A stretch of DNA of 64,000 nucleotides from Minisyncoccota bacterium (GCA_041662205.1 JBAZSZ010000001.1:159107-223106), one strand, 5' to 3'. Shown: positions 9,236 through 35,447, numbered from the stretch's first letter. Notes: generated by a model from the sequence alone, not told the origin. Made by a program: numbers and translations.

Positions 9236-9330
9236 AAATGTAATTTTTAAAAAGCAATCTATCTGGCGCTGTTGCGCCAGCGAACTGCTCGGCTCGTCAG
9301 CCTGCGCAAGGCTTTTTAAAAACAACATTT
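9236..9330. repeat. GC-rich palindromic intergenic element, copy R1 (core 9257-9312), flanked by imperfect 19-bp inverted repeats
   Basis: The core is identical to copy R2 (17331-17386, opposite orientation) except for compensatory changes in the internal hairpin. The flanking inverted repeats are aaatgtaatttttaaaaag / ctttttaaaaacaacattt. Confidence 0.6.
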
Positions 9331-17295: not shown

Positions 17296-17429
17296 CAAAA
17301 CAAACTTGTTGCAGGCGTACTTTTTAGAATGCCTTGCGCAGGCTGACGAGCCGAGCAGTTCGCTGGGCTAGCAAGCCCAGATAGATTGCATTATAAAAAG
17401 TATGCCAAGAAAGAGTTTGTTTTGTTATT
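17291..17429. repeat. GC-rich palindromic intergenic element, copy R2 (core 17331-17386), flanked by perfect 16-bp inverted repeats
   Basis: aataacaaaacaaact ... agtttgttttgttatt flank a core that is the reverse complement of R1, with a covarying internal hairpin. Confidence 0.6.
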
Positions 17430-18427: not shown

Positions 18428-18572
18428 AACTGTGAATTACGAAACTTTTTCTTGGCACAGGTTTTCTGTCAGCACACATAAAAATCTACTGATTTTTTGC
18501 TATGCTCGGCGCGCCCGCCTGCGCAATGCTTCCAGAAAACTGCGCCTGCGACAAGTTTCATAATTCACAGTT
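18428..18572. repeat. Inverted-repeat-bounded element with a GC-rich core (R5, related to R1/R2)
   Basis: 18-bp terminal inverted repeats aactgtgaattacgaaac / gtttcataattcacagtt. The core ctcggcgcgcccgcctgcgcaatgc resembles the R1 sequence ctcggctcgtcagcctgcgcaaggc. Confidence 0.5.
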
Positions 18573-18697: not shown

Positions 18698-19021
18698 ATG
18701 GCTACAAAGCTATATGTAGGGGGACTCCCTTACAGCACTCAAGAGGATGCTCTTAAAGAGCTCTTCGCACAAGCTGGAAACGTTGTTTCTGCTGTGATTA
18801 TCATGGACAAAATGTCTGGTCGTTCAAAAGGTTTTGGTTTCGTAGAAATGTCATCTCAGGATGAAGCTGGAAAAGCTATTTCTATGTTTAATGATCAAGA
18901 ATTTGAAGGACGAAAACTTACTGTCAACGAAGCTCGCCCTATGGAAGCTCGTCCACCACGTTCAAACGGCGGTGATCGAGGAGGATACGGCAACAATGGA
19001 GGTGGACGCCGAGAATATTAA
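18698..19021 (+). CDS. RRM-domain RNA-binding protein with a Gly-rich tail
   Basis: RNP2 (LYVGGL) and RNP1 (KGFGFVEM) motifs; C-terminal RGG/Gly-rich tail. Confidence 0.8.
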   Translation: MATKLYVGGLPYSTQEDALKELFAQAGNVVSAVIIMDKMSGRSKGFGFVEMSSQDEAGKAISMFNDQEFEGRKLTVNEARPMEARPPRSNGGDRGGYGNNGGGRREY

Positions 19022-19046
19022 TTCTTTTTCTTTTACCTTAAAAACA

Positions 19047-19075
19047 AAAAACCACCGTTATAGGTGGTTTTTTGT
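19047..19075 (+). terminator. Rho-independent terminator
   Basis: accacc-gttata-ggtggt hairpin followed by TTTTTT. Confidence 0.6.
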
Positions 19076-19110
19076 TTGCTCAACTTTTTAAACATAACTT
19101 TTTCCGGTAC

Positions 19111-19158
19111 GGATTTTTTGAAGCTTAAAAAATCCTGAAGTTCTCGGCTCGTCAGCCT
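19111..19158. repeat. 25-bp near-perfect palindrome (ggattttttgaagcttaaaaaatcc) followed by a partial copy of the R-family core (ctcggctcgtcagcct)
   Basis: Seen directly; the 16-nt core segment is identical to part of R1. Confidence 0.4.
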
Positions 19159-19228
19159 CGAAACCCCTCAAAAGTTATGTCCTAAAAAGTTTGCTGAAGT
19201 TAAGATATTTTGTTATAGTTTTTTTATT

Positions 19229-19244
19229 GAGCGTGTAGTTCAGT
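19229..19244 (+). pseudogene. 16-nt 5' fragment of a tRNA-Ile-like gene (GAGCGTGTAGTTCAGT)
   Basis: Identical to the first 16 nt of the 5' half at 19284. Confidence 0.4.
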
Positions 19245-19283
19245 ATAGGATGCTACGGGGATGATGTTAAAAAAATAATATAT

Positions 19284-19318
19284 GAGCGTGTAGTTCAGTG
19301 GTAGAACGCTGTCCTGAT
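19284..19318 (+). pseudogene. 5' half (acceptor through anticodon loop) of a second tRNA-Ile-like gene
   Basis: GAGCGTG-TA-GTTCAGTGGTAGAAC-G-CTGTC-CTGATA. Positions 8-37 are identical to the intact tRNA-Ile. Its acceptor strand pairs with the 3' fragment at 19485-19519. Confidence 0.5.
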
Positions 19319-19366
19319 ATAACGAATACAATATAAACGGTTCGCTCGCCGATTATAAAAACAAAT

Positions 19367-19438
19367 GTGTCTGTAGTTCAGTGGTAGAACGCTGTCCTGA
19401 TAAGACAGAGGTCGAAGGTCCGATTCCTTCCAGACACA
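19367..19438 (+). tRNA. tRNA-Ile (anticodon GAU)
   Basis: Complete cloverleaf: acceptor GTGTCTG/CAGACAC, anticodon loop CTGATAA, T-arm GAAGG-TCCGATT-CCTTC. 72 nt, no CCA encoded. Confidence 0.85.
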
Positions 19439-19484
19439 CATGAAATACATTTATTTTTTACATACAGCTCACTGCCGTTTATAA

Positions 19485-19519
19485 GACAGAGGTCGATGGT
19501 CTGATTCCATCCACGCTCA
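19485..19519 (+). pseudogene. 3' half (anticodon-stem 3' strand through acceptor) of the second tRNA-Ile-like gene
   Basis: GACAG-AGGTC-GATGG-TCTGATT-CCATC-CACGCTC-A. Its acceptor strand is complementary to the GAGCGTG of the upstream 5' fragments. The T-stem differs from the intact gene by compensatory changes. Confidence 0.5.
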
Positions 19520-19593
19520 CTTGTATAAATTTCGGAGTTACTTTTGAAATAAAAAAGGGTGAAATTTTATCAAAAATATGGTATAATGAATGT

Positions 19594-20613
19594 ATGTTAA
19601 AGATAGAACTAATTAAAAAAATTGAAGAAAAACGAGGTTCCAAAGTTATTTCTTATATTACTAGCGATAGGCAAGGCCCTGTTGGTGCTAGGGTAGCAAT
19701 GGATATTATTCCTATTATTAGTGAACAACTTCGTAAAATTGGAAAGGTAAATAAAATCGATCTTTTCCTTTATACGGCGGGGGGAGATACGATGGTTCCT
19801 TGGCGTTTAGTTTCTATGATTCGTGAATATTGTGATACTTTTTCTGTGCTTGTGCCTTATAAGGCCCATAGTGCAGGAACAATGATTGCTCTAGGCGCAG
19901 ATGAAATATTGATGAGCGACTTGTCAGAAATTTCTCCTATTGATCCTTCTACAGCAAATGTCTTTAACCCCACAGATCCAGCTAATCCACAAAATAAAAT
20001 TCCTATCTCAGTGGAAGATGTTATTGCTTATTTTGATTTAGCAAAAAATAAATTTGGAATAAAGAGCGATGAAGACTTAACAAAAGTTTTTAATAAATTT
20101 GTTGAATCAAATCCACAAATTCATCCTCTCGCTCTTGGCAACGTAAATCGTATACACAATCTTATTCGTTTGATTGCAAAGCGTTTACTCAAGAGTCACA
20201 AAGATCCAATGAAAGAAGAGCAGATAGAAAAAGTTGTTGAATTTTTTACTGAAAAACTTTATTCGCACACATATTTTATTGGAAGGAAAGAAGCCAAAGA
20301 AGAATTGGGAGTTAAATCAGTTACAGAAGCAGACGCTGCACTTTCAGACCTCATGTCTCAACTTTACTTTGAATATGTTAAAGAAATGGAATTACAGAAC
20401 AACGTTTGGAATCCTCAAAACGAGCTTGGAGCAAACGCAAGTCAAAATGTAAAAGAATACAAAGTAGCTTTTGTAGAAAGTGCCATTCTTTCAAAAGTAT
20501 ATCAATTAACAATGGAATTCAAGCGCCACCAGGGTATAGTAGCTCAACCCAACGGCGCGCAAGTATCTCAAGAACAAGTCGCAATTAGAATAGTGGAACA
20601 AGGGTGGAAATAA
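19594..20613 (+). CDS. ClpP-fold serine protease of the SDH/S49-like family
   Basis: The pattern ITSDRQGPVG...LFLYTAGGD...YKAHSAGTMIALGADEILM resembles Clp/SppA-class serine proteases. First gene of an operon that is tightly spaced with mod/res. Confidence 0.5.
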   Translation: MLKIELIKKIEEKRGSKVISYITSDRQGPVGARVAMDIIPIISEQLRKIGKVNKIDLFLYTAGGDTMVPWRLVSMIREYCDTFSVLVPYKAHSAGTMIALGADEILMSDLSEISPIDPSTANVFNPTDPANPQNKIPISVEDVIAYFDLAKNKFGIKSDEDLTKVFNKFVESNPQIHPLALGNVNRIHNLIRLIAKRLLKSHKDPMKEEQIEKVVEFFTEKLYSHTYFIGRKEAKEELGVKSVTEADAALSDLMSQLYFEYVKEMELQNNVWNPQNELGANASQNVKEYKVAFVESAILSKVYQLTMEFKRHQGIVAQPNGAQVSQEQVAIRIVEQGWK

Positions 20614-20614
20614 A

Positions 20615-21007
20615 ATGGAAAAAAATATTTATATTGATTTTACTCATATTTGCGAAAATGTTATCGATGCTAAAAATGGGAACTTAAGTCTCATAAACAT
20701 TTTTAACCAAATAACCTCATCCAATTTTCCAGCAGTTTATTCGCAAATGTATGTTGTAGTTGGTGGACGCGGAATAAAAGGAGAGTATCCAGTAAGTATA
20801 AAAATTGAAAACAAAACTACCGGCAAAATTGTTGTTCGTGAACAGGTACTACCAAATAAGATTATAATTCCCGAAGATACAGGAGAAGGGAGACTTTATA
20901 TTAAATTTTCTCCCTTAATTTTAGAGACAGAAGGAAAATATGAAATTATGCTTTCCATAGAAGGAGAATCGAAAAACTTATTTTTTGATGTAAAATCTTC
21001 TAAATAA
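20615..21007 (+). CDS. Hypothetical protein (130 aa)
   Basis: Begins 2 nt after the preceding stop; beta-rich, no recognisable motif. Confidence 0.4.
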   Translation: MEKNIYIDFTHICENVIDAKNGNLSLINIFNQITSSNFPAVYSQMYVVVGGRGIKGEYPVSIKIENKTTGKIVVREQVLPNKIIIPEDTGEGRLYIKFSPLILETEGKYEIMLSIEGESKNLFFDVKSSK

Positions 21008-21011
21008 AGTT

Positions 21012-21605
21012 ATGTCCGAACAGAATACACAAATTGAAGAGGTAGAGAGTAGTCGTATAAAAACAGGAACCCAGAAAGGTACAGTGGAAGAGACCAAGGT
21101 TAATTTTAATCAGGATGAAGCTTGGACGCTTCTAGATAATAGAACAAAAAACTTAGAAAAAACTGCCGATAGGGTAGAAAAAAGAATAGATAAAGTAGAA
21201 GATAAAATAAGGGACTCAAATCTTAACACCATTGAAACCCTGGCTATTTTTGTAGCTCTTTTTACTTTTGTTTCCATAGAATTTCAAATTTTCCGATCAT
21301 TTTCTTCATGGGAAGCAGCTGCGAGTTTATCCTTAATTTTATTAGGCACCCTAACATTTTTTGTTGTGTTGATAGTTTCTCTTATCGACAAAAAATTTAA
21401 CCCCTCTATGTTTTTGAAATGTATGATTGGATTAACAATATTGGGTGGTGTTGCTCTTTTTGGACAATCAAAAATAATTGATTCTGATTATATTTTAAAG
21501 CAAGAGTTAGAAGAAAATTTTTACACCCAACACCAAACTGATAGTCAGTGGACTGATTTTAAAACCTGTATATGGTATAGAGGATTGAATAATTGTTTGA
21601 AATAA
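21012..21605 (+). CDS. Hypothetical coiled-coil protein with 2-3 C-terminal TM helices
   Basis: Begins 5 nt after the preceding stop; N-terminal coiled coil followed by hydrophobic helices. Confidence 0.4.
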   Translation: MSEQNTQIEEVESSRIKTGTQKGTVEETKVNFNQDEAWTLLDNRTKNLEKTADRVEKRIDKVEDKIRDSNLNTIETLAIFVALFTFVSIEFQIFRSFSSWEAAASLSLILLGTLTFFVVLIVSLIDKKFNPSMFLKCMIGLTILGGVALFGQSKIIDSDYILKQELEENFYTQHQTDSQWTDFKTCIWYRGLNNCLK

Positions 21606-21609
21606 TGAC

Positions 21610-23151
21610 ATGCCATCTTTAAACTGGATTGGAAAAGATAAGATTGAGAATCACGACAAAGATGTCGCTTTTCGACTTTTAAAAAAGAATGAGAAGTTGT
21701 CGCTAGGAAAAAGTAGTGAGAATTTGATTGTGGAAGGAGATAACCTCGAGGCATTAAAAGCGTTGATGCCTCATTATGCCGGAAAAGTAAAATGTATTTA
21801 CATTGATCCTCCTTACAACACTGGTAATGAGGGGTGGGTTTATAATGACAAAGTGAATTCTCCTAAAATAAAGGAATGGCTAGGGAGAGCGGTGGGACCA
21901 GAAGGAGAGGATTTAACTCGGCACGATAAATGGCTTTGTATGATGTATCCACGTTTGAAATTATTACGCGACCTACTTCGAGACGATGGTGTGATTTTTA
22001 TTTCCATAGATGATAATGAGCAACATAATCTTAGATTTATCATGGATGAGCTTTTTGGAGAAGAAAATTTTGTGACAAACATTATTTGGCAAAAATCCTT
22101 CTCCCCTATTAATTTAAGGAAAAATTTTTCTAGTAATCATGACTTCATAATCGTATATGCAAGGAATAGAGTTAATTTGAATTTAAATTTATTAGTTCGA
22201 GGAAAAGAAAACAATGAAAGATATAAAAATCTAGACAATGATCCGAGAGGTGCTTGGACATCAAGTGATTTAACTGTGGGACCAATAATTAGAGAAAAAC
22301 TTTATAAAGTTGTTTCTCCTAGTGGAAAAATATTTATTCCTCCGTCAGGACGATGTTGGGTTGTTACAAAAGAAAGATTTGAAGAGTATCAAAAAGAAAA
22401 AAGAATTTGGTGGGGAGAAAAAGGTGATAATATGCCTAGGCAAAAAAGATTTCTTTCGGAAGTGCAACAAGGTATTGTGCCCATGACTATATGGACACAT
22501 CAAGAAGTTGGGCATAACCAGGAAGCAAAGCAAGAGATAAAACAAATACTCAAACAAGAGGTTCCTTTTGAAACTCCCAAACCAACTCGTTTGCTTAAAA
22601 GAATTTTTCAACTTGCAACAAAAGAAAACGACCTAGTCATGGATTCTTTCGTTGGTTCTGGTACAACTGGACAAGCAGTTTTAGAGTTAAATAAAGAAGA
22701 TGGAGGCAATCGCAAGTTTATTTTAGTTGAGTTGGAAGAAAAAATTGCCCGTAAAATTACACAGGAAAGGGTACGTAGAGTAGCAGAGAAAATAGGTGGG
22801 GATTTTGAGTATGTAGCGCTGGGTGATGCACTTTTTGAAAGTTCTGGCGCAATTAATCCAAAAGTGAGTTTTAAAGACCTTGCTTCTTATATTTATTTCA
22901 CGGAAACCCACACCAACATTAATCCAAAGAAAATAAAAGGTAATTTTATTGGCGAATATAATGGACAGGAGTTTTACCTATTATTTAAAGACAAGGATAA
23001 AAACATTTTTAATAGGTCCACTCTTTCCAAGATAGGAAAATCAAAATTGTCTAAAATTGTATATGCAGACAAGTGTTTATTGGACCAAGACATACTTAAC
23101 AAGTGGGGGATCATTTTTAAACAAATTCCTTATTCAGTAAAAACATATTAG
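21610..23151 (+). CDS. mod: Type III restriction-modification methyltransferase (Mod, N6-adenine)
   Basis: DPPY motif (IYIDPPYNTGNEGW) and an FxGxG-like AdoMet region. Immediately followed by res. Confidence 0.85.
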   Translation: MPSLNWIGKDKIENHDKDVAFRLLKKNEKLSLGKSSENLIVEGDNLEALKALMPHYAGKVKCIYIDPPYNTGNEGWVYNDKVNSPKIKEWLGRAVGPEGEDLTRHDKWLCMMYPRLKLLRDLLRDDGVIFISIDDNEQHNLRFIMDELFGEENFVTNIIWQKSFSPINLRKNFSSNHDFIIVYARNRVNLNLNLLVRGKENNERYKNLDNDPRGAWTSSDLTVGPIIREKLYKVVSPSGKIFIPPSGRCWVVTKERFEEYQKEKRIWWGEKGDNMPRQKRFLSEVQQGIVPMTIWTHQEVGHNQEAKQEIKQILKQEVPFETPKPTRLLKRIFQLATKENDLVMDSFVGSGTTGQAVLELNKEDGGNRKFILVELEEKIARKITQERVRRVAEKIGGDFEYVALGDALFESSGAINPKVSFKDLASYIYFTETHTNINPKKIKGNFIGEYNGQEFYLLFKDKDKNIFNRSTLSKIGKSKLSKIVYADKCLLDQDILNKWGIIFKQIPYSVKTY

Positions 23152-23153
23152 TT

Positions 23154-25439
23154 ATGGAACTAAAACGATATCAAAAAGAGGTTATAGATAAGTTTGAGCT
23201 ATTTTTGAAAACGGCAAAATCAATACCGAATAAAAATCAGGCAGCCGCTTTTGCTTTCATGTCTTTAACAAAGGTGCCCTACAAAGAACTCCCAGATGAG
23301 CTCGCTGAGACACCTTTTCTCTGTGTGCAAGTCCCGACAGGAGGCGGAAAAACTTTCATTGCTTCACATATTATAGACAGTGCATATACTCATTTCGAAA
23401 AAACTCAACAAAAGAACGATACGGGCTTAGTTTTGTGGCTTGTGCCTAGCGATGCCATAAGAACTCAGACGCTTCAAAAATTACGAGACAAAAATGATCC
23501 AGTTCGTGAAGTGCTCGATGAACGCTTTAATAATAAAGTTGTAGTTTTAGATATTTTAGAAGCTAGAAGTATTAAGAAAAGTGATATAAGCGAAAACATA
23601 ACTATTGTTGTGGCTACTTTTGCTTCATTTAAAAGGGAAGAAACAGAAGGATTAAAAGTTTTTCAAAATAATGGAGCTTTAATGACTCACTTTGAGAATC
23701 AAACTGAAGATGAAAATCAAAAATATTCTGTGATAGAGGTTATAAAAAAAAATACTCCGTTAGTTATCGTCGACGAAGGGCACAATGCACAAACAAGCCT
23801 TTCCCTCGATATGTTTAAGGATTTAAATCCCTGTATGATTGTAGAATTTACCGCGACACCAAGAAGCTTGAGTAATGTTTTTGTTTCTGTTCCAGCGACT
23901 GAGTTGAAAATGGAGCACATGATTAAGATGCCTATTTTCCTAGAAACCAAGACGATTTGGCAAGATGCTATAAAATTAGCTTATGAAAAAAGGAACGAGT
24001 TAGAAAAAATTTCCCAAAAGCAAACGAAAGATTCCTATATTCGCCCTATTTTGCTTATCCAGGCCGAACAAGAAATTGAATCTCCCACCAGGATATATGT
24101 AGGTAAAGTTCTTGAATATCTTGAACAAGAATTAAAGATTGATCGTAATGAGATAGCTATTCGAACCGGGAAGCAGAATGAAATTGAAAATAAAAACCTT
24201 TTTAGCTTAGAAGTAAAGATTAGATATATCATAACAGTGGATGCATTAAAAGAAGGCTGGGACTGTTCATTTGCATATGTTCTTGCATCAGTGAAGAACC
24301 TTGGGGCTCCCGTTGCTGTAAAGCAATTAATTGGTCGTATACTCCGGTCTCCCTATGCGATCGAACATAAATTTAAAGAGTTCAATCAGGCCTATGTATA
24401 TGCTAGCGCTCCCAATTTTCAAGATGCTGCAAGGTTAGTTATAGATGGTTTGAAAGCAAATGGATACGATATAGATCCAACTAATTTAAATAAAAAAACT
24501 ATTAATACTATAAAAACTGAATATTCCAGAAATAAAAAAGGTGAAGTGAAGCTGCCGTTAATAGCTTTTAATGCCGAAGGCGAGATAAGAGAGCTAGATT
24601 ATAGCGCCGACTTGATTGGAGATGTCTCTATTCTTAATAAGATAAATCCTACAATTGACCTGAGTGGGAGGGAAGATACAGGGGTCGCTCTGATTGATAT
24701 TAATACGAAAGGAGATTTGGTTCGGGAGCAAGCAGAAAATTCATATTCAACAAACGCAGACGTAGAATTTTCCATAGAACAATTAGTTGAATGGTTATTA
24801 AAAAAAATTAGTCGGTCTTTTCTCTCTCTTACAGACATAGAAGAATTTATAGTTAAAGCCGTGAAGTTGCTGATTCCCAAAAAGATTTCTATAAATAATG
24901 CTAACCGAAAACGCTACCTTTTGCTCGAAAGAATCAATGAACTAGTTGATGGGATAGTTAATGAACATACCTATAAACAATTTTTTCAATTTTTAAAAAG
25001 CAAACATATTCTTACGAATTCTAAAGTTGCGTGGGAGGTCGGTAATAAAATTGAATATAATCAAATTATTTCAGGGATAATCTACAATAAACATATTTTT
25101 ACAGGTGTGGGACAGATGAACACTGAAGAACAAAAACTTGCTGATGTAATTAATAGTATCGAATCTGTGGAATGGTGGTTGCGAAATCCTGAACAAAACG
25201 GTTTTTATATACAAGGATGGATGGGTAATAAATTTCGTCCCGATTTTATCGTAAAAACACAAAAAGGAAATTACTTTGTTCTCGAGTATAAAGGTGATCA
25301 ATTGGTGACAAATGATGACAGTAAATACAAAAAAGAATTAGGAGATGTATGGACAAAAATTGCAGGAGAAAAATATCATTTTGAAATGGTGGAAAAAAAT
25401 GAAATAAATTCAATAGCTCAGTTGATTTTAAAAAATTAG
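23154..25439 (+). CDS. res: Type III restriction endonuclease Res subunit (SF2 helicase plus C-terminal PD-(D/E)xK domain)
   Basis: Walker A (VPTGGGKTF), DEGH box (VIVDEGHNAQ) and a C-terminal EYKGD nuclease motif. Begins 3 nt after mod. Confidence 0.85.
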   Translation: MELKRYQKEVIDKFELFLKTAKSIPNKNQAAAFAFMSLTKVPYKELPDELAETPFLCVQVPTGGGKTFIASHIIDSAYTHFEKTQQKNDTGLVLWLVPSDAIRTQTLQKLRDKNDPVREVLDERFNNKVVVLDILEARSIKKSDISENITIVVATFASFKREETEGLKVFQNNGALMTHFENQTEDENQKYSVIEVIKKNTPLVIVDEGHNAQTSLSLDMFKDLNPCMIVEFTATPRSLSNVFVSVPATELKMEHMIKMPIFLETKTIWQDAIKLAYEKRNELEKISQKQTKDSYIRPILLIQAEQEIESPTRIYVGKVLEYLEQELKIDRNEIAIRTGKQNEIENKNLFSLEVKIRYIITVDALKEGWDCSFAYVLASVKNLGAPVAVKQLIGRILRSPYAIEHKFKEFNQAYVYASAPNFQDAARLVIDGLKANGYDIDPTNLNKKTINTIKTEYSRNKKGEVKLPLIAFNAEGEIRELDYSADLIGDVSILNKINPTIDLSGREDTGVALIDINTKGDLVREQAENSYSTNADVEFSIEQLVEWLLKKISRSFLSLTDIEEFIVKAVKLLIPKKISINNANRKRYLLLERINELVDGIVNEHTYKQFFQFLKSKHILTNSKVAWEVGNKIEYNQIISGIIYNKHIFTGVGQMNTEEQKLADVINSIESVEWWLRNPEQNGFYIQGWMGNKFRPDFIVKTQKGNYFVLEYKGDQLVTNDDSKYKKELGDVWTKIAGEKYHFEMVEKNEINSIAQLILKN

Positions 25440-25492
25440 AAAAAGTATATTTGCGAGAAGCTTTTAGCGGGGAATTGGTGTAAAATATAAAT

Positions 25493-26434
25493 ATGTCACT
25501 TTTTAAAAAACAAAATGGAAATATAAGCCTAGTAAAAGAAAAGCTTTTTGCATTAGAAAAAGAGTTACAAAGCATTACGGAACATAATATAAAGGAGATA
25601 TTTGGGTTAGAATTTGTTGCGACTGAATTTCAGCATAATGGTTTACGTATAGATACTTTGGCGTATGATTCTAGCTTGAATACTTTTGTAGTTATTGAAT
25701 ACAAGAGGGAAAAGAGCTTTAGTGTGATTGATCAGGGTTTTGCTTATCTTTCGCTTATTTTAAACAATCAAGCAGAATTTGTTTTGGAGTTTAATAAAAA
25801 ATTTCAAGAGAAAAAAGGGAAAGCAGATTTCGATTGGTCTCAAATGAGAGTCCTGTTTTTGACTAGATCGTTTACAGTTCACCAATTGGAAGCAATTAAC
25901 TTTAGGGATTTACCTATTGAGTTATGGGAAGTGACCCGTTATGAAGGGGATCTTATTCAGTATTCACAAACCAAGCGTTCCGGAGCCAAGGCCTCTATCG
26001 AGACCCTCGGTATTTCAAATAGCGAAGTGCGTAAAATTTCAAAAGAGGTAAGAACTTATTCTGAAGAGGAATATTTAAACAATAAGCCAAATGGAAATGG
26101 TAGAAAGTTCTATGAAAAAATTAAAGAAAAAGTCGCAGTTATTGATTCTAATATTGTTATAAACCCAACTAAATCCTATATATCATTTCAGTGGCCAAAT
26201 AATTGGCGCAATATATTTTATTGTCACGTATCGGGTAACAAAATTCGTTTAGACTTTACAAGGAGTGAACCTAAGGATTTCAAAGATCCTGAAAAGAAAG
26301 TTTTTTACAACGAAAGTAGTATGAAATACTACAAACAGCACATATCATCTATCGAGATAAATAATGAAAAAGAACTTGAGTACTCAGTTTATATAATCCA
26401 ACAAGCCTACGAAAGATTCCAAAAAGAAAACTAA
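25493..26434 (+). CDS. NucS/DUF91-like PD-(D/E)xK nuclease-domain protein
   Basis: N-terminal GLRIDTLAYD...FVVIEYKREK is a RecB/NucS-like D...ExK motif; the C-terminal half is of unknown function. Confidence 0.5.
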   Translation: MSLFKKQNGNISLVKEKLFALEKELQSITEHNIKEIFGLEFVATEFQHNGLRIDTLAYDSSLNTFVVIEYKREKSFSVIDQGFAYLSLILNNQAEFVLEFNKKFQEKKGKADFDWSQMRVLFLTRSFTVHQLEAINFRDLPIELWEVTRYEGDLIQYSQTKRSGAKASIETLGISNSEVRKISKEVRTYSEEEYLNNKPNGNGRKFYEKIKEKVAVIDSNIVINPTKSYISFQWPNNWRNIFYCHVSGNKIRLDFTRSEPKDFKDPEKKVFYNESSMKYYKQHISSIEINNEKELEYSVYIIQQAYERFQKEN

Positions 26435-26497
26435 TATCCAAAGGAGGCGAAGCTCACGAAACTTTAGCAAGAGTTGTAAAAAGGTTAAAATAAACCG

Positions 26498-26674
26498 ATG
26501 CAAAAAGGAAAAAAAGCAAAAGCAAAAGCAAAAGATAAAGATTTTAAAGATGATGATTGTGAAATATGCAAACTTATGAGAAATGGAAATCCAACCCCTG
26601 AGGCTTTAGAAAAAGCTTTTAACTTGCAGAATTTTTTAAATAATTTTCCAAAAGATAAGGGCAAGAAGAAATAA
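26498..26674 (+). CDS. Possible small Lys-rich protein (58 aa), not in the ORF track
   Basis: ATG-initiated ORF (MQKGKKAKAKAKDKD...). Its 3' end is one copy of the 42-bp direct repeat. Weak RBS. Confidence 0.3.
   Translation: MQKGKKAKAKAKDKDFKDDDCEICKLMRNGNPTPEALEKAFNLQNFLNNFPKDKGKKK
26630..26671 (+). repeat. Direct repeat, copy 1 (aattttttaaataattttccaaaagataagggcaagaagaaa)
   Basis: Differs at 3 of 42 positions from copy 2 at 27133-27174. Together the two copies bracket the TspO gene. Confidence 0.6.
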
Positions 26675-26696
26675 TTTAAAATGATATAATAAAATT

Positions 26697-27128
26697 ATGA
26701 ACAACACTTACTCTTGGTATTCGCAATTAATAAAACCTACTTGGGCTCCACCAAGCTGGCTCTTTGGTCCGGTGTGGACTTTTCTTTATGTTTTGATTGC
26801 TGTGTCATTCGGAAAAGTATTTTGGATGGCATGGCAAAAACAGATTACGCTTCTCGTTGCCTTACCTTTTTTATTGAATCTAATTTTTAATTTTGCTTTT
26901 ACTCCTTTACAATTTGGATTACAAAATAATTTTTTAGCAGCAGTAGATATTCTTTTAGTTTTAGGAACTCTCATCTGGGGTATGATTGCGATATACTTTG
27001 CCTCGCAGGAGCTTGTAAGCGTAGGAGGGTCTAGTATAATGTGGATTGTTTATATTCAAATTCCTTATCTTCTCTGGGTATCATTTGCGACTATTCTGCA
27101 ATTAACTGTCACTTTTTTAAATAGGTAA
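26697..27128 (+). CDS. tspO: TspO/MBR (tryptophan-rich sensory protein) family
   Basis: N-terminal YSQLIKPTWAPPSWLFGPVWTFLY is the TspO signature; five TM helices. Confidence 0.75.
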   Translation: MNNTYSWYSQLIKPTWAPPSWLFGPVWTFLYVLIAVSFGKVFWMAWQKQITLLVALPFLLNLIFNFAFTPLQFGLQNNFLAAVDILLVLGTLIWGMIAIYFASQELVSVGGSSIMWIVYIQIPYLLWVSFATILQLTVTFLNR

Positions 27129-27132
27129 TTTT

Positions 27133-27174
27133 AATTTTTTAAATAATTTTCCAAAAGATCAGGGTAAGAAGAAA
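27133..27174 (+). repeat. Direct repeat, copy 2
   Basis: See copy 1. Confidence 0.6.
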
Positions 27175-27361
27175 AAAAATTAGATAATAATGAAGTTGGA
27201 TTAAATATTCAAAAATAGATAAGGATGGATTATGAGAAAGGGAGCAGGGGAACTTCAAGAGCTTTTTGTTGAAACTGGATTAGATAATATGGTTGACAGA
27301 ATAAATAAATCATGATATAAAAAAGGCAGATCGAGCCTTGCTCATTTTTAAATTTAAATTC

Positions 27362-27385
27362 AAAAAAATAAAAAAAAGGGGGGGG
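27362..27385 (+). promoter_or_regulatory. A7-T-A8-G8 homopolymeric tract forming the RBS of the downstream gene (candidate phase-variation site)
   Basis: caaaaaaataaaaaaaaggggggggatatATG: the G8 run sits where the Shine-Dalgarno would be, 5 nt before the ATG at 27390. Confidence 0.4.
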
Positions 27386-27389
27386 ATAT

Positions 27390-27956
27390 ATGCGCACGAA
27401 TCTCATTGAGTCCTATATTGATATGCTTCAAAAGTCTTTAGGGCTTATTAAGCCACCAGTTGAAGAAGAAAAGTTGCGTGATCTATACGACTCAAGAAAC
27501 TTCGGTGGTATGGTCAGCCATATCCAAGAAACCTTGAGACTAGACATGAAAATCCGTTTGGGCTACGTAAGCAAAGGTGGACCAAAAGATGCACCAGCAT
27601 GGGTGGAAAGACCAATTGATATGCCGTTTTACAATTCCTCAGAATTTCGACAGACCACTGTAGTAGTGTATCTCCGAAAAACATTCCTACGAAATGGCAA
27701 TTTTGAGGAAGCAGTATTGGCTATTTCTCATGAACTTAGCCATATAGTTCTCGATGCTATTAAGCATCCTTTGAGAATGCATGAAATAGCAGTCGATTTA
27801 ACTGCTATGTTGCTTGGGTTCAGAGATTTTTACGTGACAGGTTGCCAAACAGCAGAACCTAGCATCTCTGGCAATCCTTATGAGATTAGATCTATAGGTT
27901 ATCTGACACCCGAAGAAGTAAGTCATGCGGCCAAATACATGACTTTCAGAAAGTAA
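27390..27956 (+). CDS. Hypothetical protein with an HExxH (HELSH) zinc-metallopeptidase-like motif
   Basis: AISHELSHIVLD...HPLRMHE. More G/C-rich than the context. No adjacent HTH partner was seen. Confidence 0.4.
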   Translation: MRTNLIESYIDMLQKSLGLIKPPVEEEKLRDLYDSRNFGGMVSHIQETLRLDMKIRLGYVSKGGPKDAPAWVERPIDMPFYNSSEFRQTTVVVYLRKTFLRNGNFEEAVLAISHELSHIVLDAIKHPLRMHEIAVDLTAMLLGFRDFYVTGCQTAEPSISGNPYEIRSIGYLTPEEVSHAAKYMTFRK

Positions 27957-28058
27957 ATATCAAGCCGTGAGAATGTCCGCAAGACGTTCCGCGGCTTTCT
28001 CATTTGTACATAAGGTCAATTTGCGTATAAAGTATTAAAGATCTATAATTTCATTATT

Positions 28059-28454
28059 ATGACTATGGAAAATGGAAAACCGGAGGGAGAAAAAGGGTCA
28101 ATTTTAGGTAAAGTTTTTAAAAGTGAAGGCTTACTAAATGCAGAAGCTAGGGCGAGCTCATTGATTGAAAGAGCTAGATTAAATGAAGCTATTAGGGTGA
28201 TAGAAGATCTAGAAGCAGAAGTAAGAGACATGAAGATATCAGATAGGTTTAGTAGGACAGCAAAACCCTCTGAGAGTGTGTACAGTTCTCTCGGTGGTGG
28301 AATGAATGCTGCATTATTAAAAGGTTTAACAGAAGATGAATACAAAAGACAAGTTTTATTAATAAATTTAAGATCAATAAGGGAAAGTATAGATTCTACT
28401 ATTGGAGGTATGGAAAGAGTAATTTTAGATATCGAGGCAACAAAACAGGAATAA
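28059..28454 (+). CDS. Hypothetical coiled-coil protein (131 aa)
   Basis: ORF with a plausible start; no recognisable motif. Confidence 0.4.
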   Translation: MTMENGKPEGEKGSILGKVFKSEGLLNAEARASSLIERARLNEAIRVIEDLEAEVRDMKISDRFSRTAKPSESVYSSLGGGMNAALLKGLTEDEYKRQVLLINLRSIRESIDSTIGGMERVILDIEATKQE

Positions 28455-28665
28455 TCTTACGTAAAGGATAGAACTGATTCAAATTTTTTTGTTATATTAA
28501 AATAGTTTTTTTACTCCTATTATTTATAATGTTTGATTAAAAATTATGCCAGTCAGATAGAGGACTGGCACTCTTGAGCCGAAGTCTCAGACTCTTTTTT
28601 TCAGATGAGGACACTTTATCCTCTTACATCTCTCAGCCTTGCGGGCAGTGAGACGAAAACCTTTT

Positions 28666-28836
28666 TTACTGCATCTGTATCTCATTCGCATCTCCTAATG
28701 AATCAGTAATTTCACTACAAGGTGGGCAAACTATTTCGTTTGCTCGCCCTTCATTAATCAAACGCAGTTCATCTTTACTGGGTGTTTGCCATTTTTCTCT
28801 TATTTGTACCTGGTGACAAACTACACAAAAGTCCAT
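28666..28836 (-). CDS. Small zinc-ribbon protein (56 aa; CxxC...CPPC), not in the ORF track
   Basis: Minus-strand ORF MDFCVVCHQVQIREKW...IVCPPCSEITD, with a strong Shine-Dalgarno (AAGGAGGTG) 7 nt upstream of the ATG. Confidence 0.5.
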   Translation of the reverse strand: MDFCVVCHQVQIREKWQTPSKDELRLINEGRANEIVCPPCSEITDSLGDANEIQMQ

Positions 28837-29057
28837 ATTATCACCTCCTTTCGAAGAACCTAGATTTGTTTAGAATTTATCATATTTTTTATAATTTACA
28901 AGCCTTATTTCTAAATTGGGCATAAATTTGCATCCTAATCTTCTTTATATTATTATAAGAGAAAGCCACGAGGCTTTTTGTTTTTACTTGTCCCGTACTA
29001 AATTTTTGATTACGGCACATAAGGATAAAGATTATTATTTAAAATTTTAGTACTGGG

Positions 29058-29315
29058 ATGAATGAAGAAAAAAAGAATTTTAACGAGGGTCCTTGGTGGA
29101 AACCAGCGATGGAGATATTAAGCGAGGTTTCGACTTGGATTGTCGTGCCTATCGTTTTAGCATTGGTTTTCGGTAAAATGCTCGATACGCATTATGGGAC
29201 AAAGCCAATTATTTTTTTAGTGTTTGCCGGATTTGGATTTTTAGTTACTTGTTTTGGTATGTATCGAGTTGTGAAGAATTATATTAAAAAATTACAGGAG
29301 ATAGGGAAGAAATAA
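29058..29315 (+). CDS. atpZ: AtpZ/AtpI-like small membrane protein preceding the atp operon
   Basis: 85 aa with two TM helices; position and pattern match the ATPase_gene1 family. Confidence 0.55.
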   Translation: MNEEKKNFNEGPWWKPAMEILSEVSTWIVVPIVLALVFGKMLDTHYGTKPIIFLVFAGFGFLVTCFGMYRVVKNYIKKLQEIGKK

Positions 29316-29322
29316 TTAACTT

Positions 29323-30171
29323 ATGGAAGAACAGATATCTGAAAAAATTACACTTTTTGCTGAACCAATATTTCATTTTGGAAATTTTAGTGTGACCAAT
29401 GCGCTTCTGACGTCTTGGGTGGTGGTTATCATCATCATTGTCTTATCTTTCGTTTTACGTTCTAGGCTCCAAACAGTTCCCGGAAAGTTACAAAATATTT
29501 TTGAACTAGTAATAGAGAATGCGCTTAGTCTTTGTGACCAAGTGACAAACAGCCGAGCTCTTTCCATAAAAATTTTCCCAATAGCTATTTCAGTTTTTTT
29601 CTTTATTTTAATAAATAATTGGCTTGGAATACTTCCTCTGGGGGGATTTGGGATCATAGAAAAGAGCGCAGAAGGTTTGACTTTTATTCCTTTTTTGCGC
29701 GGAGGGACAGCTGATATAAATACCACTGTTGCTCTCGCAGTCATGGCAGTCATCGGGGCAAATATTTTTGGAGTTTTTTCTATTGGCCTCTGGAAAACTT
29801 TTAACAAATATGTTAATCTAAAAGTGCTCGGACAGATATTTACAAAAATAAGAGAGGATAAAACTGTAATTATTGTAGCTCCGATCACGTTCTTTGTCGG
29901 TTTGATTGAGATTATCGGTGAATTTGCGAAAGTTGCCTCACTCTCATTTCGTCTCTTTGGTAATGTATTCGCTGGGGAAGTGCTCTTGGTATCGATGGCA
30001 GCCCTCGTGGCCTATGTCGTTCCGATACCTTTTCTTTTCCTTGAATTGCTTGTGGGTGTTATCCAAGCATTGATTTTTTCAATTTTGTTGGTGGTTTACT
30101 TTACGATTGGAGCTACGGATCATGATGAACATGAGCATGAACAAGAGGAGCATACAGTAGTCGCAGTTTAA
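29323..30171 (+). CDS. atpB: F0F1 ATP synthase subunit a
   Basis: FRLFGNVFAGEVLL conserved Arg region. Unusual C-terminal tail GATDHDEHEHEQEEH. Confidence 0.9.
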   Translation: MEEQISEKITLFAEPIFHFGNFSVTNALLTSWVVVIIIIVLSFVLRSRLQTVPGKLQNIFELVIENALSLCDQVTNSRALSIKIFPIAISVFFFILINNWLGILPLGGFGIIEKSAEGLTFIPFLRGGTADINTTVALAVMAVIGANIFGVFSIGLWKTFNKYVNLKVLGQIFTKIREDKTVIIVAPITFFVGLIEIIGEFAKVASLSFRLFGNVFAGEVLLVSMAALVAYVVPIPFLFLELLVGVIQALIFSILLVVYFTIGATDHDEHEHEQEEHTVVAV

Positions 30172-30202: not shown

Positions 30203-30442
<240 letters not shown>

Positions 30443-30475
30443 GTAATTATTATTTGAAAATTTAAAATAGTTCTT

Positions 30476-30548
30476 GAGAAATGCCTTGCGCAGGCCGACT
30501 GGGCCGAGCAGAGCAAAAATTCAGCAGAATTTTATGTGTGCATTTCGA
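30476..30548. repeat. Divergent copy of the GC-rich element (R3) between atpE and atpF
   Basis: The core gccttgcgcaggccgactgggccgagcag resembles R2's gccttgcgcaggctgacgagccgagcag. Flanked by the inverted repeat gaaatgc/gcatttc. Confidence 0.45.
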
Positions 30549-30581
30549 GAGAAGCTATTTTAAATTTTCAAAAATTACCAC

Positions 30582-35322: not shown

Positions 35323-35379
35323 AATTTTTTAATATTTACTTTTAAAAACCCGCATAAAATTCTACTGAATTTTTGCTTA

Positions 35380-35400
35380 GACTTCGGCCCGTCGGCCTTC
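35380..35400. repeat. Short GC-rich box (acttcggcccgtcggccttc) related to the R-family core cggcYcgtcRgcc
   Basis: Lies between atpD and atpC; 2 mismatches from the R1 core segment. Confidence 0.35.
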
Positions 35401-35447
35401 GTATGATTTTTAAAAGCAATATTTAAAAATTTTTCAAAAACAATCAT

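What the first reader, a model, noticed from the sequence alone, without database searches (positions are those of the whole stretch)
19594..28900. Accessory island between the tRNA-Ile cluster and the atp operon
The 19.6-28.9 kb stretch carries the R-M operon, a NucS-like nuclease, TspO flanked by direct repeats, an HExxH protein behind a homopolymeric RBS, small Cys proteins and several hypotheticals. It begins immediately after a rearranged tRNA locus and ends at a terminator-like hairpin (28958-28975; the window reads gaaagccacgaggctttttg there) before the conserved atpZ-BEFHAGDC operon. tRNA-adjacent blocks dominated by hypothetical and defence genes are typical integration hot spots.
Basis: inference. 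Interest (0 to 1): 0.5.

Follow-up and report, generated by a model that had tools for sequence, protein, structure and literature searches.

The report
Variable gene island beside tRNA-Ile
A 9.5 kb block of defence and miscellaneous genes sits between a tRNA-Ile gene and the ATP synthase operon of a tiny uncultured bacterium (Patescibacteria), at a spot where relatives carry nothing or unrelated genes; it is a real but ordinary insertion hot spot.

Summary
Window 19.5-29.0 kb carries a five-gene operon (ClpP-like SDH protease, DUF6941, membrane protein, Type III Mod and Res). It also carries a NucS-fold/DUF5655 protein (PADLOC PDC-S18), TspO between 57-nt direct repeats, an HExxH ORF behind an A8G8 run, two small Cys proteins and a hypothetical.

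In about 90 related Nomurabacteria/Paceibacterota loci the order rpmE-prfA-RRM-tRNA-Ile-atpZ-atpB is conserved. In 54 of them tRNA-Ile lies directly before atpZ. The other 38 hold 0.6-8.8 kb of mostly unrelated cargo there. The window's 10 kb gap is the largest.

It is a mosaic, not one element:
- The left 7 kb is unique to this genome. It consists of modules found at other loci in other Patescibacteria, often beside R-M genes or serine recombinases.
- The right 2.5 kb is shared with the nearest relatives at core-like divergence.

There is no integrase, no att repeat, and no deviation in composition or codon usage. Only one relative carries an integrase at this site.

This is a new member of a known kind. 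The adjacent tRNA locus, an intact tRNA-Ile nested inside a split one with palindromic flanks, remains unexplained.

The parts
18698..19021 (+). RRM RNA-binding protein gene. It is the left conserved (core) flank of the hot spot.
   Evidence: tblastn shows 86-98% aa identity in most relatives, always after g217-PGhyd-rpmE-prfA. PF00076 is recorded for the identical protein in L082.
19229..19244 (+). Orphan copy of the first 16 nt of the 'A-type' tRNA-Ile. It sits where the native gene would start, about 10 nt after a TGTTATAGT -10-like box at 19211-19219.
   Evidence: family D9. The same fragment and junction occur upstream of tRNA-Ile in L141, L032 and L082-85.
19284..19319 (+). Perfect 5' half (positions 1-36, ending in the anticodon loop) of A-type tRNA-Ile, acceptor GAGCGTG.
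   Evidence: The A type is the intact gene in most close relatives.
19367..19439 (+). The only intact tRNA-Ile(GAT), 'B type' with acceptor GTGTCTG/CAGACAC.
   Evidence: ARAGORN; Rfam 72.6 bits. It is 98.6% identical to the L029 tRNA.
19481..19520 (+). Orphan 3' half (from the anticodon loop to the 3' end) of A-type tRNA-Ile. Homology to relatives ends at about 19520-19532, which marks the left edge of the island.
19559..19587 (+). Extended -10 promoter-like site (GTGAAA-17-TG-TATAAT), 6 nt before the ATG of the protease gene. This implies a leaderless operon start.
   Evidence: The same TGnTATAAT box lies 6-7 nt before the ATG in L086, L088, L089 and L093. Nucleotide homology to L086 starts at 19574.
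19594..20613 (+). ClpP-like SDH-type serine protease, first gene of the cassette.
   Evidence: PF01972 1.4e-17; phrog_11747 1.4e-38. Homologues in many Patescibacteria are 72-95% identical.
20615..21007 (+). DUF6941 protein, partner of the protease.
   Evidence: PF22091 3e-13. The same pairing occurs in L089-92.
21012..21605 (+). Coiled-coil and transmembrane protein with a C-terminal FKxCIWxxGLxNCLK motif.
   Evidence: Sequence. Its C-terminus is homologous to the 132-aa third gene in L089.
21610..23151 (+). Type III R-M methyltransferase (Mod). DPPY and FxGxG motifs are present.
23154..25439 (+). Type III R-M restriction subunit (Res). It has GGGKT and DEGH helicase motifs and a C-terminal PD...EYK nuclease motif.
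   Evidence: A 100% identical protein lies on a 377,753-bp NCBI Candidatus Paceibacterota MAG contig.
25493..26434 (+). NucS-fold N-terminal region plus DUF5655. It matches the PADLOC phage-defence candidate PDC-S18.
26498..26674 (+). 58-aa Lys-rich CxxC protein. Its 3' end is the first copy of the 57-nt repeat.
   Evidence: There are two copies of the gene in L002.
26630..26686 (.). Direct repeat, copy 1 (57 nt).
   Evidence: D1
26697..27128 (+). TspO/MBR family membrane protein.
   Evidence: PF03073 1.2e-25. 81% aa identity to the L002 gene at the same locus.
27133..27189 (.). Direct repeat, copy 2 (86% identical to copy 1).
   Evidence: D1
27370..27385 (+). A8G8 homopolymer pair, 4 nt before the HExxH ORF.
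27390..27956 (+). 188-aa HExxH (HELSH) protein with no family match.
   Evidence: No homologue in any of the 160 atp loci.
28059..28454 (+). 131-aa hypothetical that recurs at this locus in a subset of relatives.
   Evidence: 57-60% aa identity in L001, L032, L034 and L148, always between tRNA-Ile and atpZ. Also present in L082.
28450..28679 (.). Non-coding stretch with several hairpins, conserved with L002 at 81%.
   Evidence: No Rfam match.
28666..28836 (-). 56-aa protein with two CxxC pairs. It is the only minus-strand gene of the block.
   Evidence: A 32%-identity counterpart sits at the same position in L002.
28923..28986 (+). Conserved block just before atpZ. It contains a promoter-like site (28927-28956) and the terminator-like hairpin (28960-28979).
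   Evidence: The block is shared at 78-85% with L002, L020, L032 and L034, all of which are occupied sites.
29058..29315 (+). atpZ/atpI-like gene. It is the right conserved flank and the start of the atp operon (atpB 29323-30171 and onward).
   Evidence: PF09527 is recorded for the homologue in L082.

Best explanation
Window ~19,521-29,057 is accessory DNA that has accumulated at a lineage-wide insertion hot spot: the junction between the 3' end of tRNA-Ile(GAT) and atpZ in Nomurabacteria-like Patescibacteria. It was built in several steps, not by one integration.

Right part, ~26.5-29.0 kb. It holds Cys58, TspO, the HExxH gene, hyp131, a hairpin region, Cys56 and a promoter/hairpin block. Most of it is an older resident of the locus, shared piecewise with the nearest relatives at the same divergence as the atp operon. 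Only the HExxH gene has no counterpart elsewhere. TspO itself looks like an insertion with a long (57-nt) target duplication, or the remnant of a recombination between two copies of the Cys58 gene.

Left part, ~19.5-26.45 kb. This is a recent, genome-specific acquisition from the Patescibacteria accessory gene pool.
- One tightly packed operon with 1-4 nt gaps, driven by its own extended -10 promoter with a leaderless start. It encodes a ClpP-like SDH protease, DUF6941, a membrane protein, and an apparently intact Type III Mod and Res.
- A NucS-fold/DUF5655 protein (PDC-S18) follows the operon.

Function (inferred): this half is a small defence island. Mod methylates its recognition sites in the cell's own DNA. 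Res, an ATP-dependent helicase-nuclease, cuts unmethylated incoming DNA. PDC-S18 is a candidate nuclease-based defence. The protease cassette is a self-contained, widely travelling module of unknown role.

Delivery (inferred): most likely exchange of DNA from related cells by recombination anchored in the highly conserved tRNA-Ile and atp flanks, and/or by recombinases acting in trans or since lost. The block itself encodes none.
For: Shown:
1. The flanking order g217-PGhyd-rpmE-prfA-RRM ... atpZ-atpB-E-F-H-A is conserved.
2. 27 of 44 GTDB loci and 27 of 48 metagenome loci have tRNA-Ile immediately before atpZ. The rest hold 0.6-8.8 kb, nearly always between the tRNA and atpZ.
3. Cargo differs between genomes: a copper-resistance island with a tyrosine integrase (L054), a CHASE2 cyclase (L010), SocA/Panacea (L066), asparaginase (L029, L034), response regulators, and a trypsin-like protease.
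4. Nothing in 80 species-level loci is homologous to 19530-26500. In contrast, 26502-27205, 28450-28679 and 28841-28985 match L002 at 77-86%, against 84% for the atp operon. hyp131 recurs in L001, L032, L034 and L148.
5. The protease gene is 72-95% identical across many Patescibacteria and sits at unrelated loci:
   - next to MTase + MjaV (L086);
   - next to MTase + MutH-like (L088);
   - next to MTase + MvaI/BcnI with a serine recombinase nearby (L093);
   - between large serine recombinases and a Rep gene (L089-92);
   - inside a glycolysis cluster (L095);
   - between grpE and dnaK (L096, L097);
   - next to ParE and a 76%-identical Type III Res (L181).
6. Homology to L086 covers exactly promoter plus gene, 19574-20616.
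7. An independent Logan assembly reproduces 19403-26652 at 100% identity.
8. At least eight public contigs (L008, L018, L024, L027, L028, L030, L042, L045) begin inside tRNA-Ile, as expected where populations differ downstream of it.

Published context: genomic islands, including one with a full R-M system, have been reported in Patescibacteria, with most transfers occurring within the phylum (PMC12455944). Insertion of R-M genes with long target duplication has also been described (PMC2853133).
Against: - No integrase, transposase or recombinase lies in the block.
- No direct or inverted repeat joins the left junction to any candidate right junction above shuffle level.
- Tetranucleotide distance (z -1.6 to +0.5), GC3 (p = 0.87) and codon usage (p = 0.40) do not differ from the rest of the window. 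Acquisition therefore rests on comparative data alone.
- The nearest sampled relatives share only about 90% AtpB identity. No same-species empty site was seen, so timing and the number of events are inferred.
- L001 and L002, the two closest relatives, are cut by contig ends before the tRNA. Their full locus is unknown.
- The defence function of any gene here is untested.
Confidence: 0.8

Rival explanations
1. The block is one classical tRNA-targeting integrative island or degraded prophage. It entered in a single integrase-mediated event and later lost its integrase and att repeat.
For: - The position directly 3' of a tRNA gene is typical.
- One relative (L054) does have a tyrosine integrase (PF00589, 6.4e-30) next to a truncated tRNA-Ile copy at this very site.
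- Partial tRNA-Ile copies with break points in the anticodon loop lie next to the island and recur in L029, L040, L072, L074, L157 and L171.
- The protease cassette sits beside large serine recombinases in L089-93.
Against: - There is no integrase remnant. The best tblastn hit has E 0.079 and lies inside another gene.
- No tRNA fragment or other repeat is found at the far end.
- The right third is shared with relatives at core-like divergence while the left two thirds are not. The block therefore has at least two ages.
- There are no phage structural genes and no relatives in IMG/VR.
- Of roughly 38 occupied sites, only one encodes an integrase.
Confidence: 0.1
2. The region is ancestral to the lineage and was deleted repeatedly in relatives. 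On this view it is a decaying core region rather than acquired DNA.
For: hyp131, TspO, Cys58 and the pre-atpZ block are shared with several relatives at about the same divergence as the core genes. Patescibacteria genomes are streamlined, so loss is common.
Against: - The left 7 kb has no counterpart at this locus in about 160 loci.
- Its genes occur at unrelated loci elsewhere.
- Occupied sites carry mutually unrelated cargo. That would require a very large ancestral region and dozens of independent losses.
Confidence: 0.06
3. The adjacency is an assembly artefact: a chimeric join at the repeated tRNA sequence or at the 57-nt repeat in a metagenome-assembled genome.
For: The source is a MAG. 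Many assemblies break at this tRNA, and the independent Logan contig ends at both repeats, 19403 and 26652.
Against: - The Logan contig joins the tRNA 3' part to the protease operon and runs through to Cys58 at 100% identity.
- The order TspO, hairpin region, Cys56, atpZ is reproduced in L002.
- The source contig is 377 kb.
Confidence: 0.03

Closest known systems
tRNA-adjacent genomic islands, and chromosomal hot spots of horizontal transfer flanked by core genes
   Same: It lies directly 3' of a tRNA gene and between two conserved core blocks. The site is empty in most relatives, and occupied sites carry different cargo in different genomes.
   Different: It has no integrase, no att direct repeat and no compositional signature. 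The content is a mosaic of modules of different ages.
Defence islands (clusters of R-M and other anti-phage genes)
   Same: A Type III R-M system and a PADLOC candidate (PDC-S18) sit side by side. Toxin-antitoxin and R-M genes surround the homologous modules in other genomes (L086, L178-181).
   Different: It is small, with two recognisable systems only. Half of the block (TspO, HExxH, small Cys proteins, hyp131) has no defence annotation.
Genomic island with a complete Type I R-M system in Patescibacteria MAG nzgw456 (PMC12455944)
   Same: Same phylum and the same kind of cargo, found in groundwater MAGs. That paper also concludes that most transfers occur within Patescibacteria.
   Different: The R-M type differs. 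Here the evidence is an empty-site comparison across about 90 loci, not composition-based island prediction, which would have missed this block.
Insertion of R-M and other genes with long target duplication (Furuta, Abe and Kobayashi 2010, PMC2853133)
   Same: TspO is bracketed by a 57-nt direct repeat that duplicates the 3' end of the upstream gene.
   Different: The duplicated unit surrounds TspO, not the R-M genes. No flanking repeat was found for the R-M operon itself.
NfeD-type ClpP-like protease and membrane-protein gene pairs (from general knowledge; only a weak Pfam hint here)
   Same: A ClpP-fold serine protease gene is followed by a small coiled-coil or membrane protein gene.
   Different: The NfeD1b_N hit is only E 0.0064, below the Pfam threshold. 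The partner is not an SPFH/stomatin protein. The cassette is mobile and linked to R-M genes.

Membership tests
Classical integrase-mediated tRNA genomic island | Located at a tRNA gene | tested here: met
   The island starts within about 10 nt of the 3' end of the A-type tRNA-Ile 3' half at 19520.
Classical integrase-mediated tRNA genomic island | Present in some related genomes and absent from others | tested here: met
Classical integrase-mediated tRNA genomic island | Encodes an integrase or recombinase | tested here: not met
   Pfam, PADLOC and NCBIfam were run on the ORFs (the 56-aa ORF 28666-28836 was not in the main Pfam run). tblastn with one tyrosine and three serine recombinases found nothing.
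Classical integrase-mediated tRNA genomic island | Flanked by direct repeats (attL/attR) that include part of the tRNA | tested here: not met
   No second copy of the tRNA 3' part exists within 3 mismatches anywhere in the window. Junction alignments do not exceed shuffles.
Classical integrase-mediated tRNA genomic island | Composition differs from the host genome | tested here: not met
   Checked GC, tetranucleotides, GC3 and codon usage.
Core-flanked HGT hot spot | The same pair of conserved flanking genes encloses different accessory genes in different genomes | tested here: met
Type III restriction-modification system | Adjacent mod gene (beta-class N6/N4 MTase) and res gene (SF2 helicase plus PD-(D/E)xK nuclease) | tested here: met
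   PADLOC MTase_III 6.7e-188 over the full length; REase_III 4.4e-85; genes 2 nt apart. Motifs DPPY, FxGxG, GGGKT, DEGH and PD..EYK were read.
Type III restriction-modification system | Methylation and cleavage activity | not testable with these tools
   Needs methylome sequencing or biochemistry.
PADLOC candidate PDC-S18 | Full-length match to the PDC-S18 profile | tested here: met
   3.1e-89, residues 1-306 against profile positions 1-301 of 302.
NucS/EndoMS endonuclease family | Sequence membership (PF01939) and the two-domain NucS fold | tested here: inconclusive
   The window protein has no PF01939 hit. One 47%-identical homologue has it. The model's best PDB matches are EndoMS and NucS with probability 1.0 but TM of only 0.21-0.32 over about 165 columns. 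A profile search against PDB sequences found nothing.
TspO/MBR | Pfam PF03073 above the gathering threshold | tested here: met
   90.4 bits against a cut-off of 24.
Prophage | Phage structural, packaging or lysis genes, or relatives in viral collections | tested here: not met
   PHROGs hits are to families of unknown function, plus a weak head-protease hit explained by the ClpP fold. There are no IMG/VR relatives.

The most novel reading that the evidence does not exclude
The tRNA-Ile/atpZ junction may be a cassette-exchange site that works without an island-encoded recombinase, and two features here may be parts of something not yet described.

(a) The protease cassette. It consists of its own leaderless promoter, a 72-95% conserved ClpP-like SDH protease, and a variable small membrane or coiled-coil partner. 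It could be a new self-contained mobile module. It turns up inside conserved operons (grpE-dnaK, glycolysis) and repeatedly beside R-M genes, so it might be a new defence or addiction system.

(b) The nested tRNA. An intact tRNA-Ile with palindromic flanks is inserted in the anticodon loop of a second, now split, tRNA-Ile. The same architecture is seen in L072 and L074, each with a different inverted-repeat sequence whose two arms still match. It could be the footprint of a small element that targets the tRNA-Ile anticodon loop and carries its own replacement tRNA.
Probability: 0.15. Interest if true: 0.6.

Novelty: new member of a known kind. Interest (0 to 1): 0.35.

Why it matters
Patescibacteria have tiny genomes and are thought to keep few defence genes, so where accessory DNA enters and which modules circulate is informative. 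This locus gives a concrete hot spot that can be checked across a whole family of uncultured bacteria. Composition-based island finders would miss it, because donor and recipient have the same composition. It also flags a very conserved protease cassette that travels with R-M genes, and an odd nested tRNA structure; both are candidates for follow-up. As a genomic island it is an ordinary example.

Tried and rejected
- Far-end att site. Searches for the tRNA 3' part (37-mer and two 22-mers, up to 3 mismatches) found only the local copies.
- Terminal repeats. The 33-nt, 73% inverted repeat at 19551-19583 / 28878-28910 (I1) does not exceed shuffles (score 26 against a maximum of 29). Both arms are promoter-like AT-rich DNA, so I treat it as chance.
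- Composition. GC, tetranucleotide distance, GC3 and codon usage all show no signal.
- Integrase remnants. tblastn with the L054 tyrosine integrase and three serine recombinases found none in the window.
- Phage origin. There were no exact matches in IMG/VR for the conserved tRNA-Ile core, and no relative of the protease there.
- Known RNAs. Rfam at gathering threshold and at E up to 1 found only the tRNA. There is no group I intron or other family at the split tRNA or in the hairpin regions.
- Leader-trailer pairing as a general property of this tRNA. Rejected: the median z over 95 loci is 0.21, and only the three nested cases score below -2.
- Same-species genomes with an empty site. The genome and metagenome scans returned nothing closer than 88-90% AtpB identity.
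- PDB search for the PDC-S18 protein. Sequence and profile searches gave no hits. Only the fold search was informative.
- Literature on DUF6941 / PF01972 in defence. Nothing relevant was found.

Full report
**What the window is.** The 64 kb has about 35% GC and four tRNA genes. Its atpB gene finds 80 species-level relatives, all Candidatus Nomurabacteria, Paceibacterota or other Patescibacteria MAGs. The closest have 90% AtpB identity. The Res protein of the block is 100% identical to a protein on a 377,753-bp NCBI Candidatus Paceibacterota MAG contig.

**Checking the observation.**

Genes:
- ORFs run almost head to tail on the plus strand from 19594 to 28454.
- Family searches give, in order:
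  - a ClpP-like SDH-type serine protease (PF01972);
  - DUF6941;
  - a coiled-coil/membrane protein;
  - Type III Mod (PADLOC 6.7e-188);
  - Type III Res (4.4e-85);
  - a DUF5655 protein that matches PADLOC candidate PDC-S18 over its full length (3.1e-89);
  - a 58-aa CxxC protein;
  - TspO (PF03073);
  - a 188-aa HExxH protein with no family;
  - a 131-aa hypothetical;
  - a 56-aa Cys protein on the minus strand.
- The 'NucS-like' label is supported at fold level, not family level.
  - A 20-sequence alignment gave a model with pLDDT 84.7. Its top PDB matches are EndoMS (5gke) and P. abyssi NucS (2vld), both with Foldseek probability 1.0 but low TM scores.
  - One homologue carries PF01939.
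  - The window protein itself shows only sub-threshold PD-(D/E)xK hits.

Sequence features:
- TspO is bracketed by a 57-nt direct repeat, 86% identical. The first copy is the 3' end of the Cys58 ORF.
- A8G8 precedes the HExxH ORF. The G8 run is the only G run of 7 or more in the window.
- The quoted hairpin is at 28960-28979.
- The 'tRNA-Ile cluster' is one intact gene plus three fragments.

**The decisive test is synteny.**
- tblastn of the window's genes against the 80 genome loci shows a conserved order: g217-PGhyd-rpmE-prfA-RRM, a gap, then atpZ-atpB-E-F-H-A.
- 44 loci contain both flanks. In 27 the RRM-to-atpZ gap is 158-528 bp, with tRNA-Ile(GAT) ending 0-80 nt before atpZ. The other 17 hold 0.6-8.8 kb of extra DNA, almost always between the tRNA and atpZ.
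- A metagenome scan added 48 such loci, some on the same contigs as the genome set. Of these, 27 are empty and 21 hold 0.6-6.5 kb.
- The window's gap runs from 19021 to 29058, about 10.0 kb. It is the largest seen.
- Cargo at occupied sites is diverse:
  - a tyrosine integrase with a copper ATPase, HMA, cupredoxin and DsbD cluster (L054);
  - FecR and a CHASE2 cyclase (L010);
  - SocA/Panacea and an HATPase-STAS protein (L066);
  - asparaginase (L029, L034);
  - response regulators (L025, L032);
  - a trypsin-like protease (L049).
- At least eight public contigs begin inside the tRNA-Ile 3' half. This fits population-level variation downstream of the tRNA.

**The block is a mosaic.**
- blastn of 18.4-29.4 kb against the 80 loci finds nothing for 19530-26500.
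- Three stretches match L002, one of the two closest relatives: 26502-27205 (Cys58, TspO, repeat), 28450-28679 (non-coding hairpins) and 28841-28985 (the block before atpZ). They lie in the same order before its atpZ, at 77-86% identity. The atp operon of L002 is 84% identical.
- hyp131 recurs between tRNA-Ile and atpZ in L001, L032, L034, L082 and L148.
- So the right third is an older, lineage-level resident apart from the HExxH gene. The left two thirds are specific to this genome.
- An independent Logan assembly reproduces 19403-26652 at 100% identity. It ends at the two repeats, as de Bruijn assemblies do.

**The left part comes from a shared Patescibacteria gene pool.**
- The protease has homologues of 72-95% identity named as Zambryskibacteria, Moranbacteria, Pacebacteria and Paceibacterota.
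- The homologues' contexts are unrelated loci:

| Locus | Context of the protease gene |
|---|---|
| L086 | HTH-Fic-Pyr_excise, protease, 153-aa gene, MTase-MjaV |
| L088 | MTase-MutH-like, protease, DUF6680 |
| L089-92 | Large serine recombinase, protease, DUF6941, 132-aa gene, with an MTase, a Rep gene and a second recombinase nearby |
| L093 | Serine recombinase nearby; MTase-MvaI/BcnI, protease |
| L095 | Inside a glycolysis cluster |
| L096, L097 | Between grpE and dnaK |
| L181 | ParE, protease, 194-aa gene, then Type III Mod and Res (Res 76% identical) |

- One of these genomes also appears in the atp set. That genome's atp site is empty (445-bp gap).
- The partner gene varies, but it is usually a small coiled-coil or membrane protein.
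- An extended -10 box lies 6-7 nt before the ATG in five genomes.
- Nucleotide homology to L086 covers exactly promoter plus gene, 19574-20616.
- In the window, the genes from protease to Res are separated by only 1-4 nt, so they probably form one transcript.
- The next-closest named Res homologue (72%) is in a Yanofskybacteria region with RadC, Phd/ParE, HicA and TspO.
- The HTH-Fic pair next to the protease in L086 is 83-91% identical to a pair in the L001 island upstream of atpZ. Modules are therefore reshuffled between such sites.

**Negative tests.**
- Tetranucleotide distance of 3-kb windows across the block has z between -1.6 and +0.5.
- GC3 is 0.273 in the block against 0.272 elsewhere (p = 0.87). 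Codon-usage distance gives p = 0.40.
- No recombinase is detectable.
- No repeat joins the left junction to any right junction above shuffle level.
- No viral relatives were found.
- Donors with the same composition explain the silent composition. This matches the report that most transfers into Patescibacteria come from other Patescibacteria (PMC12455944).

**Mechanism.**
- Shown: the site is a hot spot, and the block is modular with parts of different ages.
- Inferred:
  - The left half acts as a small defence island. The Type III R-M system has intact catalytic motifs, and PDC-S18 has a nuclease fold.
  - Insertion occurred through recombination anchored in the invariant tRNA core and the atp genes, or through recombinases acting in trans or since lost.
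  - L054 shows that integrase-bearing islands do use this site.
  - The conserved block at 28923-28986 occurs only in occupied loci. It may supply a promoter and 5' structure for the atp operon once that operon is separated from the tRNA.
  - TspO fits 'insertion with long target duplication' (PMC2853133). Alternatively it is a remnant of recombination between two Cys58 copies, as L002 has two.

**The adjacent tRNA locus (only partly followed up).**
- The intact tRNA (B type, acceptor GTGTCTG, as in L029) lies between a perfect 5' half and a near-perfect 3' half of the A-type tRNA. The A type is the intact gene in most relatives.
- Both junctions are in the anticodon loop.
- The spacers carry an inverted repeat, TATAAACGG / CCGTTTATA.
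- L074 and L072 have the same architecture with different but internally matching inverted repeats.
- Among 95 loci, only these three show leader-trailer complementarity with z below -2.
- RNA folds of the window and L074 structures are more stable than shuffles, with z of -3.1 and -4.7.
- Orphan 5' halves ending in the anticodon loop also occur in L029, L040, L157 and L171.
- The tRNA is inverted in L022, L032, L058, L082-85, L099, L112, L133, L143, L144 and L152.
- This shows repeated recombination within the tRNA gene. I could not decide between att scars, template-switch palindromes and a small tRNA-carrying element.

**Verdict.** It is a new example of a known kind, an accessory and defence gene hot spot next to a tRNA. 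Interest is moderate to low. The protease cassette and the nested tRNA are the parts most worth a further look.

Noticed in passing
window 19229-19520; also L074:6393-6625 and L072:9380-9620: An intact tRNA-Ile is nested inside the two halves of a second tRNA-Ile that is split at the anticodon loop. The flanks are palindromic, and the inverted-repeat sequence differs between genomes while the two arms still match each other. Only these 3 of 95 loci show such flank pairing.
   Followed up: partly
window 19559-19593; L086, L088, L089, L093 just upstream of the protease gene: A conserved extended -10 box (TGnTATAAT) lies 6-7 nt before the ATG of the SDH protease gene. This suggests a leaderless, self-promoted cassette.
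   Followed up: partly
L096/L097:5364-10315 and L095:542-9047: In other Patescibacteria the same protease and its small partner gene are inserted between grpE and dnaK, and inside a glycolysis gene cluster, in the same orientation as the host genes.
   Followed up: no
window 30440-30580, with partial copies at 18472-18529, 35353-35438, 17328-17358 and 9285-9316: A short intergenic repeat family with 23-nt inverted ends lies between atpE and atpF and in other core intergenic regions. It is also present in 27 of the related atp loci. No copy was found inside the island.
   Followed up: partly
L054:1223-8101: At the same hot spot in a relative, a truncated plus-strand tRNA-Ile copy (66 nt) and a full minus-strand copy flank a 6.7 kb copper-resistance island. 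A tyrosine integrase lies next to the truncated copy. The inverted copies may explain why the tRNA is flipped in several relatives.
   Followed up: partly
L082:3564-6665 (also L083-L085): In genomes whose RRM protein is identical to the window's, aconitase and isocitrate dehydrogenase genes sit between prfA and the RRM gene. This is a second variable spot, one gene to the left.
   Followed up: no
window 28450-28679: A 230-nt non-coding stretch with several hairpins, between hyp131 and the minus-strand Cys56 gene, is conserved at 81% with L002. It has no Rfam match. It could be a small RNA or a pair of convergent terminators.
   Followed up: partly
window 27370-27385: An A8G8 tract lies 4 nt before the HExxH ORF. 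The G8 run is unique in the 64 kb and could allow slipped-strand switching of expression.
   Followed up: no
L029:7080-7136 and L171:1440-1500: The orphan tRNA-Ile 5' halves in two relatives carry the same GC-rich hairpin (gccccgcctgagctaggcggggt) inserted in the D-loop position, although their intact tRNAs are of different types.
   Followed up: no
L002:1-734: The island upstream of atpZ in one of the two closest relatives starts with a reverse-transcriptase-like ORF (YxDD-type motif RYFDDV). This was read by eye from the translation and not checked against Pfam.
   Followed up: no
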